From assembly GCA_009914755.4 (NCBI GenBank), contig CP086569.2, positions 24,448,001 to 24,512,000 on the forward strand: a stretch of 64,000 bases of DNA, written 5' to 3'. A program made the position numbers and the translations under genes. This document shows, one piece after another, positions 23,931-26,260 of the stretch. Position 1 is the first letter of the stretch. Each line of letters opens with the position of its first letter. Under the pieces are notes generated by a model that saw only the letters and a list, made by a program, of their open reading frames with translations, was not told the DNA's origin and ran no database searches. This DNA is from the human T2T-CHM13v2.0 reference genome, Homo sapiens.

Positions 23931-26260
23931 ACAGCCCAGAAAGATGGGAAAATTCCTGTTAAGGAAAAAAAGGTCTCCAACATAGCGAATCAGGAAATAA
24001 TCTCCACTCAGGAAAGAGGCTAGAAAAAAGGGGACCCAGTCAATGGAGTCAGGGAAAACCCCACTCAGGGAGTAGCCAGAAAAAAAAGATGGTTAGCATA
24101 GAGAATCAGGGAAAAATTCTTACTTAAGAATAGACATCCAGGAGGAAAATTCAAGCCAAAAATATCAGAGAATGAGCCCCTCTTAGGAAGAAGGGTACAC
24201 AACACAGAACATACAGGAATAATCTCAAACATGAAGCAAAGCTGACAAAAAAAGAGTTGCAGACTTGGAAATCAGGAAACAATTTCCAGTCAGATTAGAG
24301 AGCAAGGCAAGAGAGACTTGCAACCCCAGGGAGTCAGGGAATAAACATAAGAAAAATTATAACCTGGGAAAAGAAAATGTCACACTAGGAGACAGGGAAT
24401 AATACCCAATAAAGAAAAAGAGCCAGGAAGATGAGATTTCCAACTAACGTATCAGGAAATAATCTTCAGAAAATTGGAATAATCTGTAATAAGGGAAGAA
24501 CAAGTTAAGAAAAACAAAACAAAATAAGAAAATGTCTATCTCCTGGAGTCAGACAGTAATCTCTAGTAAGGGAAACACCAGGAGGAAAATACTTTCTGCA
24601 CATTAGGAATAAATGCCACTCGGGAAAGACAGAGCCAATAAGAAGGAACTCCTACCTAAGAAAGTTAGAATAATCATTATTATTTTTTAAAGAGAGAGAA
24701 GTAAGGATTTTAAATGAACTAATGTTATAATCTTTATCAGGAAATAGAGTCATAAAGAAGAATATTGAGCCCAAATGTCAGATAAAAATTTGAAATCAGA
24801 AAAAAGAGTGAGGGAAGACAAACTTCTATCCCAGGGAGCCAGGAAATAATCTTCAATCATGAAAAGAAGTAGAAAAACAATCTTTCACCAGAGAGCTCAT
24901 TTAATATTTATCTCAGAGAAAAGAACAAAGGGAAAAAAAAAGAAGTTCAGTCCAAGGATTCAGAGAATAATACTAATTTAGGACAGGGAACCAAGAAGAA
25001 GTGACTATGAACTCAGAATCACATGAGAATTATTCTCACTTAGGAGAGAGAGACAATCTAGTAGTCAGAAAAAATGTTACCCATTAACAAAGAGAACAGA
25101 AAGAAGAGACGTCTATCCAGAGAGTCAGAAAAGAGAGCTAATAAGTGACTTACAGCTCAGGTGCCAGGGAATAAACTCCATTTCATAAGAGAGCAAGAAC
25201 GAAGGTCTTTCAAATCAAAAAGTGAGAGAATAATTGTTACTCAAGGAAGAGATCTGGAAAGACATGACGTCCAATCAGGAAAATAATTTCTTTTATGAAA
25301 CAGAGCCAGGAAAAACAGGTTTTCACTCCAGGAGTGAGGAAATCTCTACACAGGAAATAGACCCAGGAATTTTTTTTTCCTGCTTAGCAAATAAGGCCAG
25401 AAATTTCCACACCAGGAGTCCAGGGAAAAGTCTTCAATCAGAAAAACAATCCAGAGGAAGAATAAGAAGAATTTTCTACCCCAGGAGGCATGGAATACAT
25501 CCCATTGAAGTACAATAGTCAGAAAAATAGAATACTATGCCAGAAATTGGGGAATAATTTCTATTCAGATGAGACATCCACTAAAAAGATATTTCTATCC
25601 CGTAAAGTCTGGGATTAATCACCAATAAAACAACAACAACAAAAAGATATGATGTTTAGCACAGAGTCAGAGAATAATCCCTATTAGGTAAGCATAGAAA
25701 AGGTAGAAGAGATTTTCACTCCAGGAGTCGGGGAGTAATTCCTACCAAGAGGTGATAGCAAAAAAAATGAAAAATAAAAAATAAAAAAAACACACACACA
25801 CTTTAAGCTCAGAAAGTTAGGGAATAATCCCTGTTGTGAAAACAAAGCAAGAGAAAAAACAAAAAGCTTTTATCCTATGAAGTAAGAAAATAATTCCCTG
25901 CTCAGGGATATCAGGAAGTCAGGATTTCCTGACTTAAGCCCAGTCAGCCAGAAAATAATTTCTACTAGCAGGGGAGTCAGGAAGAATAGATATCCAACCT
26001 AAATGCAAGGAAATGGGTTTCCTATAAAGAAAGACAGCCATGAAGAAGAATGTTCCAGATTAGGAGTAAAGGACTAATGTTCACTGAAGAAAAAAAAAAA
26101 AAAGAGTTAAATAGAGCTGACTTTCACACCAGGCTTGGGAGAAACGTTTTGCATGCTTGGGAGAAAAAATACATTCCCCTCTTAAAAAAGAGTGCCAGGA
26201 TGAAGAGAATTACAGCCCAGCGGAGTTGTAACTAAGGTTGTATTCCCTACTCTAAAGAAA
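23931..26260. repeat. Degenerate tandem array, ~39 units of ~58-60 bp (minisatellite/satellite-like), approx consensus AGTCAGGGAATAATCTCCACTCAGGAAAGAGGCCAGRAAAAAGRGR-YTTCCAMCCCAGGG
   Basis: Anchor motif AGG(G)AA(A/T)AAT recurs at 23971, 24030, 24088, (24144), 24215, 24273, 24336, 24394, 24454... with spacings of 56-71 bp, mostly 58-60. Each unit contains ...CTCAGGAAAGAG.C.AG.AA.AAG...CCAGG(A/G)AGTC. The periodicity continues to ~26260. Confidence 0.85.

What the first reader, a model, noticed from the sequence alone, without database searches (positions are those of the whole stretch)
23931..26260. 2.3-kb degenerate tandem array of ~58-60 bp units (about 39 copies)
A strongly periodic but diverged array, unit roughly AGTCAGGGAATAATCTCCACTCAGGAAAGAGGCCAGRAAAAAGRGRYTTCCAMCCCAGGG. 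Unit-to-unit identity looks to be only about 60-75%, so it is old or poorly homogenised. It does not match satellites I can recall (alpha, beta 68 bp, HSATI-III, gamma, CER 48 bp, DYZ1 pentamer, MSR1 37 bp). It sits immediately after a (GATA)-like simple repeat and about 6 kb downstream of an RBMY pseudogene, so it could be a Y-linked minisatellite or satellite family. The only ORFs inside it (for example 25234..25518, 94 aa) are repeat artefacts.
Basis: seen in the sequence. Interest (0 to 1): 0.65.

Follow-up and report, generated by a model that had tools for sequence, protein, structure and literature searches.

The report
Ancient decayed 60-bp tandem array relic
The 2.3-kb stretch is a real but very old, mutationally worn-out array of about 40 copies of a 60-bp unit that sits next to a dead L1 retrotransposon downstream of an RBMY pseudogene, and it looks like ordinary neutral "fossil" DNA, not an active satellite, a gene or a regulator.

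Summary
Window 23,931-26,260 holds about 40 head-to-tail units on the + strand. Median unit length is 58 bp, identity to a 60-bp consensus is 74%, and mean pairwise identity is 58%. The signal is far above shuffles and occurs nowhere else in the window. Standard TRF settings miss it.

Unit relationships are star-like, with no neighbour effect, no higher-order repeat and no subfamilies. This fits one amplification burst followed by long neutral decay.

Two colinear, 85-89% identical copies of the block were recovered from public assemblies. One is probably a paralogue in the same, probably human, genome. They show no unit-length indels, no slower substitution than the flanks, and no conserved ORF. 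So the array is frozen, non-coding cargo of a duplicated RBMY-flanking block.

Directly downstream, on the same strand, lie:
- a second decayed array (107 bp x 8);
- about 620 bp of unique sequence;
- a decayed L1 ORF1, cut by an Alu.

This monomer-tether-ORF1 layout suggests an ancient L1 5' region. Whether the 60-bp array belonged to that L1 or arose in place could not be decided, because no human genome or Dfam library was available.

It is not a homogenised satellite family. Interest is low.

The parts
23838..23921 (.). (AGAT)n / (AGAGAT)n-like simple repeat that bounds the array on its left. It may be the tail-derived microsatellite of an upstream retroposed sequence (inference).
   Evidence: TRF rows with periods 4, 6, 16 and 22.
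23931..26260 (+). The finding: a degenerate tandem array of about 40 units of 58-60 bp. The + strand is A-rich (A 0.43, GC 0.37) and the sequence is not a decayed CpG island.
26316..27183 (+). Second decayed tandem array: 8 units of about 107 bp, GC 0.46, mean pairwise identity about 50%. It is a candidate set of L1 5'UTR monomers. It is not demonstrably homologous to the 60-bp unit.
   Evidence: Anchor spacing of 100-127 bp; unit alignment; consensus-to-consensus alignment not above shuffles; no 60-bp profile hits here.
27184..27802 (+). Non-repeated 'tether-like' segment between the 107-bp array and ORF1. It is the best-conserved part among the related copies (91-96% identity).
27803..28228 (+). 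Decayed N-terminal half (coiled coil) of an L1 ORF1, with frameshifts and stops, truncated by an Alu.
   Evidence: The stitched translation has human L1 ORF1p as its best PDB hits: 6FIA at E=6e-4, and 2YKO/2YKP at E=0.014, aligned in register. Pfam gave no hit.
28229..28521 (+). Its start is present in related copy L122 and the whole element in contig L123, so it predates the block duplication that gave L122.
11006..17840 (+). Context: an RBMY-like gene copy with introns and in-frame stop codons (unprocessed pseudogene). Its residues match RBMY-specific ones, judged against RBMY1A1 recalled from memory.

Best explanation
The region is a fossil minisatellite.

Origin (inferred). A 60-bp, A/G-rich unit was amplified head-to-tail to about 40 near-identical copies in a single episode. 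The mechanism would be replication slippage or unequal exchange, acting either in the 5' region of an L1 progenitor or at this locus.

Decay (shown). Homogenisation then stopped. Every unit has since drifted independently to about 26% from the consensus. That corresponds to roughly 0.3 substitutions per site, and therefore to an age of the order of 100 Myr or more, the age class of mammal-wide repeats (inference from standard neutral rates).

Duplication (shown). Much later the array was copied passively as part of a block of at least 4 kb: 60-bp array, 107-bp array, unique segment, L1 ORF1 remnant and Alu. This block lies downstream of RBMY-family gene copies.

Present state. The array has no coding capacity, shows no detectable constraint and shows no copy-number dynamics.

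The origin of the unit is not settled. I put about 0.35 on the array having arrived as the outer part of the adjacent ancient L1's 5' region, about 0.45 on a locus-born array, and the rest on another unclassified element.
For: - The array is real and confined to 23,921-26,260 on the + strand.
- Pairwise unit identity is 0.584 and flat across lags 1-12.
- Its mean, SD and maximum match a star model in which each unit is an independent draw from the column frequencies: SD 0.065 against 0.065, maximum 0.784 against 0.799. So there are no subfamilies, no higher-order repeat and no recent local duplication.
- Related contigs L121 and L122 are colinear with window 24,139-27,547 and 24,247-28,289.
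- Substitution identity among the copies is 0.86-0.89 in the array, against 0.89-0.92 in the 107-bp array and 0.91-0.94 in the unique segment. The array is therefore not conserved more than its flanks.
- No indel of 58-62 bp separates the copies.
- The array ORF is 94 aa in the window but 50 and 79 aa in the other copies. A consensus translation finds no protein among 5.8 billion. The 94-aa ORF finds only those two unnamed singleton ORFs among 1.84 billion.
- Contig L123, from a sample labelled 'human metagenome', is 100% identical to the window over about 27,900-28,877 and 99% identical to the end of L121. This suggests that the window is human and that L121 is a paralogue in the same genome.
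Against: - Neutrality rests on only three copies of unknown provenance. L122's species is unknown, and L123 may be an assembly chimera.
- The somewhat faster divergence inside the array could be partly alignment noise in repetitive sequence.
- Copy-number polymorphism among living humans was not examined.
- The age estimate depends on an assumed rate and on an alignment-optimised identity.
- I could not run Dfam/RepeatMasker or search a human genome. The array could therefore already be part of a named L1M 5'-end model, or of one of the T2T-Y 'new repeat' models.
Confidence: 0.78

Rival explanations
1. The 60-bp array is the outermost part of the 5' UTR of the adjacent ancient L1. It would then have arrived by retrotransposition, and hundreds of dispersed, equally decayed copies should exist in front of ORF1 of one L1M subfamily.
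For: - The array has the same strand as the L1 ORF1 remnant 1.5 kb downstream.
- The intervening layout of 107-bp x 8 array, about 620 bp of unique sequence and ORF1 mirrors the monomer-tether-ORF1 plan of rodent L1 (PMC5381506 and PMC9022269).
- The array's A-rich + strand (A 0.43) resembles an L1 sense strand: A is 0.40 in a young L1 and 0.50 in the ORF1 remnant.
- The degree of decay is comparable to that of the 107-bp units.
- Mammalian L1 5'UTRs reach 3.2 kb and often carry tandem 70-100-bp motifs (PMC5381506).
Against: - No detectable homology exists between the 60-bp and 107-bp units.
- The array is CpG- and TpG-poor (TpG o/e 0.72), so it is not a decayed CpG island. Yet L1 CpG-rich promoter sequence is reported to sit at the extreme 5' end in nearly all mammals (PMC5381506).
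- The implied 5'UTR of about 3.9 kb would exceed the longest one reported there.
- YY1-box-like motifs occur at chance level.
- No dispersed paralogues could be retrieved, although these searches had little power.
Confidence: 0.35
2. It is a live Y-linked minisatellite or satellite family, still subject to expansion, contraction and homogenisation.
For: The unit size and tandem layout fit a minisatellite. The region lies in an RBMY context. More than one copy of the region exists.
Against: - Units are only 58% alike, with no neighbour effect and no subfamilies.
- Copies that differ by 11-14% keep the same unit count and register, with no unit-length indels.
- Further copies are colinear duplicates of the whole block including the L1 remnant (both L121 and L122) and, in L122, the Alu, not independent arrays.
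- TRF cannot see the array at standard settings.
Confidence: 0.04
3. It is the remnant of a protein-coding repeat: a 20-residue repeat exon of a dead or unannotated gene.
For: The 60-bp unit is a multiple of three, and two frames of the consensus are open (from the consensus).
Against: - Unit lengths vary from 44 to 74 bp, so no frame is maintained.
- The longest + strand ORF inside the array is 94 aa, and it is not conserved in length in the related copies.
- The consensus translation in both open frames shares no words with any of 5.8 billion proteins.
- Only two unnamed ORFs match among 1.84 billion.
Confidence: 0.02
4. It is the internal or 3' tandem-repeat region of another, unclassified retroposed element on the + strand. 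That element would end near the (AAAC)n at 26,254-26,272, and the L1 would begin just after it.
For: A short (AAAC)n sits at the array's right edge. A tail-like (AGAT)n microsatellite lies at its left edge. The L1-like 107-bp monomers start about 45 bp after the (AAAC)n.
Against: - The (AAAC)n lies in register with the A-rich part of the last unit, so it need not be a poly(A) tail (by eye).
- No reverse-transcriptase or other L1 ORF2 similarity lies upstream on the + strand between 7,400 and 36,000.
- The 1.1 kb upstream has no match elsewhere in the window.
Confidence: 0.1

Closest known systems
Monomeric (tandem-repeat) 5' UTRs of mammalian L1, e.g. mouse A/Tf/Gf monomers of about 200 bp plus tether; tandem 70-100-bp motifs in horse, elephant, hyrax and opossum L1 (PMC5381506, PMC9022269)
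   Same: Head-to-tail units lie upstream of, and co-oriented with, an L1 ORF1. The adjacent 107-bp x 8 array plus about 620 bp of unique sequence reproduces the monomer-tether-ORF1 plan.
   Different: The 60-bp units are shorter, A-rich and without a CpG-island footprint. They are separated from ORF1 by a different array. About 40 copies (2.3 kb) would make an unusually long 5'UTR. Dispersed family members were not shown.
Ancient, non-polymorphic minisatellites ('dead' VNTRs) in mammalian genomes
   Same: The unit falls in the 10-100 bp class and forms a tandem array. The divergence pattern is that of one burst followed by independent decay. No copy-number change is seen among diverged copies.
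   Different: Most catalogued human minisatellites are GC-rich and far better preserved. This one is below the detection threshold of standard TRF settings.
Subunits of the RBMY composite repeat of the human Y (T2T-Y, doi 10.1101/2022.12.01.518724)
   Same: The array lies about 6 kb downstream of an RBMY-family copy. The block exists in several diverged, colinear copies. [quoted passage not shown]
   Different: This window holds a single RBMY pseudogene and no 23.6-kb tandem periodicity. I could not see the paper's tables ST11 and ST18 (truncated in storage), so I do not know whether this array is one of the annotated subunits.
MSY1 (DYF155S1) Y-specific minisatellite and the SVA VNTR (both recalled from memory; SVA also in PMC5753468)
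   Same: Tandem arrays of tens of base pairs, on the Y or inside a retroposon.
   Different: MSY1 has 25-bp AT-rich, hypervariable units. The SVA VNTR has 35-50-bp GC-rich units flanked by Alu-like and SINE-R parts. Neither the period nor the composition nor the flanks match.

Membership tests
Minisatellite (tandem repeat, unit 10-100 bp) | Head-to-tail copies of a 10-100-bp unit | tested here: met
   40 units, median 58 bp, all on the + strand.
Minisatellite (as a variable VNTR) | Copy number varies between alleles or copies | tested here: not met
   Three copies 11-14% apart keep the same register, with no indel of 58-62 bp. Population data were not available.
Classical human satellites (alpha 171 bp, beta 68 bp, HSAT1-3, gamma, CER 48 bp, MSR1 37 bp) | Characteristic period and homogenised arrays, often with higher-order repeats | tested here: not met
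   The period is 58-60 bp. Pairwise identity is 58%, with no dependence on lag and no subfamilies. The satellite consensus sequences themselves were not compared.
L1 5'UTR monomer array | Lies directly 5' of, and co-oriented with, L1 ORF1 | tested here: inconclusive
   The array is co-oriented, but 1.5 kb from the ORF1 remnant, with a different 107-bp array and about 620 bp of unique sequence in between.
L1 5'UTR monomer array | CpG-rich promoter character (a decayed CpG island should leave TpG/CpA excess) | tested here: not met
   GC 0.37, TpG o/e 0.72, CpA o/e 1.11. The criterion comes from PMC5381506.
L1 5'UTR monomer array | The same array is present in many dispersed copies of one L1 subfamily with unrelated flanks | not testable with these tools
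   No human genome or Dfam library was available. Protein-word, metagenome, genome and viral scans gave nothing usable.
RBMY composite-repeat subunit (T2T-Y) | Adjacent to an RBMY-family gene copy and present in several colinear copies | tested here: met
   RBMY-like pseudogene at 11,006-17,840. Colinear copies L121 and L122.
RBMY composite-repeat subunit (T2T-Y) | Part of a 23.6-kb unit arranged in tandem | tested here: not met
   Self-comparison of the 64-kb window shows only L1 and Alu pairs and no 23.6-kb repeat. Dispersed or fragmented copies are, however, mentioned in the paper's supplement.
Protein-coding tandem repeat | Maintained reading frame and homologous proteins | tested here: not met

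The most novel reading that the evidence does not exclude
The 60-bp array and the 107-bp array together are the two-tier monomeric 5' UTR of a mammal-wide (L1M-age) L1 lineage preserved full-length on the Y. That would mean rodent-style, many-monomer promoters, here with about 40 short A-rich outer units, already existed in ancient L1s of the human lineage.
Probability: 0.25. Interest if true: 0.35.

Novelty: new member of a known kind. Interest (0 to 1): 0.12.

Why it matters
It matters little biologically. It is one more fossil tandem array carried inside a duplicated Y-chromosome block.

Its practical value is for annotation. The array is invisible to TRF at standard settings, so a 2.3-kb stretch next to RBMY-family copies may be left unannotated, or be labelled only as a 'new repeat' subunit. 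The profile given here would let it be masked correctly.

If the L1 reading is right, it would add an example of a long, monomer-built 5' UTR in an ancient L1. That is of modest interest to people who study L1 promoter evolution.

Tried and rejected
- TRF at the tool's settings (min score 30) and at 2/7/7 does not report the array. Only lenient settings return fragments.
- Rfam gathering scan of the whole window: no hit.
- Pfam on the ORF1-remnant translations: no L1 family hit, as expected for the fast-evolving coiled coil. The PDB search did recover L1 ORF1p.
- Homology between the 60-bp and 107-bp consensus units, which I suspected by eye, is not above shuffles: 95 of 500 shuffles reach the observed score. 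It was dropped.
- YY1-box (AAGATGGC) as a marker of an L1 5' terminus at the array start: window-wide counts are at chance level (71 against 62.9 +/- 8.3). It was dropped as evidence.
- Exact look-ups of window ORFs in public assemblies (26779-27162, 25234-25518, 25264-25518) are not on record.
- Consensus translation against 5.8 billion proteins: no candidate.
- Six-frame query across the left boundary (23,650-24,250): 3,022 candidates, none significant.
None contained the unit profile, so all were chance matches.
- Exact 28-mer from the array in genome contigs and in viral contigs: none.
- Literature: no description of this array. Khan et al. 2006 is not held. The T2T-Y supplementary tables ST11 and ST18 are truncated in storage. 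The run accessions of L121 and L122 are not mentioned in any held paper.
- A search for + strand L1 ORF2 downstream of the ORF1 remnant found none. The only old ORF2 is on the minus strand at 36,490-38,890 and is unrelated to the array.

Full report

Yes. The window is primate DNA, full of Alu- and L1-derived ORFs.

- Autocorrelation of 23,931-26,260 shows peaks at lags 59-61 and 119-121 above a flat background.
- The motif TCAGGGAATAATCTC (up to 4 mismatches) hits 28 times in the window. Twenty of these fall between 23,990 and 25,948, all on the + strand, spaced 58-62 bp apart or multiples of that.
- That alignment divides the region into 40 full units plus two partial ends. Median length is 58 bp (range 44-74) and identity to the consensus is 74%.
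- The refined consensus is AGTCAGGGAATAATCTCCACTCAGGAAAGAGGCCAGGAAAAAGAGATTTCCAACCCAGGG.
- A profile built from unit pairs gives an unbroken chain of significant + strand hits from 23,921 to 26,220 and nothing significant anywhere else in the 64 kb.
- TRF misses the array at standard settings. With lenient settings it returns only 3-4-copy fragments of period 57-59.

**2. History read from the units**

Pairwise identity does not depend on distance along the array: it is 0.56-0.59 for lags 1-12. Its mean, spread and maximum cannot be told apart from a simulation in which every unit is an independent draw from the column frequencies. There is no higher-order repeat, no subfamily and no sign of recent local duplication.

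The simplest reading is one amplification burst that produced near-identical copies, followed by independent decay. Identity of 74% to the consensus corresponds to roughly 0.3 substitutions per site. From standard neutral rates I infer an age of the order of 100 Myr or more, the age class of mammal-wide repeats.

**3. Surroundings**

- Left: an (AGAT)n-like simple repeat at 23,838-23,921.
- Right: a second, previously unnoticed array of eight units of about 107 bp at 26,316-27,183, about 50% alike.
- Then about 620 bp of unique sequence.
- Then, from about 27,803 to 28,228 on the same strand, a frameshifted remnant of the N-terminal coiled coil of L1 ORF1. Its stitched translation has human L1 ORF1p as best PDB matches (6FIA, E=6e-4; 2YKO/2YKP at E=0.014), aligned in register.
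- The ORF1 remnant is cut by an old Alu at 28,229-28,521.
- No + strand ORF2 follows.
- About 6 kb upstream lies an RBMY-like gene copy with introns and in-frame stops, matched at 11,006-17,840.

**4. Related copies**

A full HMMER search of the array's 94-aa ORF against 1.84 billion proteins gave only two hits, both unnamed singleton ORFs from assembled sequencing runs. Their contigs are colinear with the window.

- L121 matches 24,139-27,547.
- L122 matches 24,247-28,289, running into the Alu.
- Substitution identity is 0.86-0.89 in the 60-bp array, 0.89-0.92 in the 107-bp array and 0.91-0.94 in the unique segment. L121 and L122 are about 0.87 identical to each other.
- Indels between copies are small (6-30 bp). 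None has unit length. The apparent 54-bp gap lies at the edge of L122's alignment and is probably an artefact.
- The array ORF is 94, 50 and 79 aa in the three copies.

A further contig, L123, comes from a sample labelled 'human metagenome'. It is 100% identical to the window from about 27,900 to 28,877, about 91% identical before that point, and 99% identical to the end of L121. This suggests that the window is human and that L121 represents a paralogue in the same genome.

The array is therefore part of a segmentally duplicated block of at least 4 kb. It was already heavily decayed when the block was copied, and it has since evolved no more slowly than its flanks. This fits the published description of RBMY copies embedded in composite units of LINEs, SINEs, simple repeats and newly annotated repeats. 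This window, however, shows no 23.6-kb tandem periodicity.

**5. What it is and how it works**

Best explanation (0.78): a fossil minisatellite with no present function, carried passively in an RBMY-flanking duplicated block.

What is shown:
- tandem structure;
- star-like decay;
- frozen copy number among copies;
- lack of coding potential;
- lack of extra conservation.

What is inferred:
- the age;
- the amplification mechanism (slippage or unequal exchange);
- neutrality in living populations.

**6. Origin of the unit: unresolved**

For an L1 origin:
- The array has the same strand as ORF1.
- Its composition resembles an L1 sense strand: A is 0.43, against 0.40 in a young L1 and 0.50 in the ORF1 remnant.
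- The neighbouring 107-bp array, unique segment and ORF1 reproduce the monomer-tether-ORF1 plan of rodent L1.
- Tandem motifs and 5'UTRs up to 3.2 kb are known in other mammals.

Against:
- There is no detectable homology between the two kinds of unit.
- There is no CpG-island footprint (TpG o/e 0.72). The CpG-rich part of L1 5'UTRs is reported to sit at the extreme 5' end.
- The implied 5'UTR of about 3.9 kb is very long.
- YY1-box-like motifs occur at chance level.

Dispersed family members, which would be the decisive evidence, could not be sought. No mammalian genome or Dfam library is reachable with these tools, and the indirect attempts failed. I put about 0.35 on L1-borne, about 0.45 on locus-born, and about 0.1 on another unclassified retroposed element.

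**7. Comparison with known things, and verdict**

It meets the structural definition of a minisatellite but not that of a variable one. It fails the period and homogeneity criteria of the classical satellites. It resembles L1 monomer arrays in position only. It is plausibly a subunit of RBMY-associated duplicated sequence.

Nothing here would surprise a specialist. The main practical point is that standard tandem-repeat finders miss it.

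Noticed in passing
window 26,316-27,183 (+): Second decayed tandem array of eight units of about 107 bp, with anchors CTTCCCTGGCTTGCTC and TCCCTGGAAGGAGGC, GC 0.46 and about 50% pairwise identity. Three of the eight units start with an inverted YY1-like GCC(T/G)TCTT. It looks like an L1 monomer-type promoter relic.
   Followed up: partly
window 27,803-28,228 (+), cut by Alu at 28,229-28,521: Frameshifted N-terminal (coiled-coil) half of an ancient L1 ORF1. 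No ORF1 C-terminal domain and no + strand ORF2 follow it.
   Followed up: yes
window 11,006-17,840 (+): RBMY-like unprocessed pseudogene. Exon matches lie at 11,006-11,113, 11,570-11,629, 14,021-14,221, 16,883-17,230 and 17,667-17,840, with several in-frame stops. The copy spans only about 7 kb, shorter than the roughly 14-kb RBMY1 genes (that length is from memory).
   Followed up: partly
L123 (= L125) against window 27,436-28,877: The contig from a 'human metagenome' sample is a mosaic. It is about 91% identical to the window up to about 27,900 and 100% identical afterwards, and its left end matches L121 at 99%. This is either a conversion or recombination boundary between paralogues, or a short-read assembly chimera.
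   Followed up: partly
window 26,900-27,400: Among the three related copies this stretch is the best conserved (0.94-0.96 between window and L121, against about 0.89 in the array). It includes a 49-bp run identical in all three copies at 27,269-27,317. The cause could be gene conversion, a lower mutation rate, or constraint.
   Followed up: no
window 28,540-29,750 (+): Right after the Alu tail the sequence starts with GGATAAAGATGGCTGCTAGAG. This contains the only exact + strand AAGATGGC in the neighbourhood, a motif like that at L1 5' termini. The sequence continues as a GC 0.49 stretch with TpG o/e 1.72, which looks like a decayed CpG island. It may be the 5' end of another old L1, but no ORF1 or ORF2 was detected after it.
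   Followed up: partly
window 441-2,068 (-) and 5,145-6,770 (+): Two L1 ORF2 segments in inverted orientation, 90% identical over 1.6 kb.
   Followed up: no
window 36,490-38,890 (-): Old L1 ORF2 remnant (40-57% amino-acid identity to the younger L1 in the window), interrupted by an Alu at 37,115-37,401.
   Followed up: no
window 34,499-34,592: Perfectly preserved 47-bp x 2 tandem duplication (97% match), much younger than the array under study.
   Followed up: no
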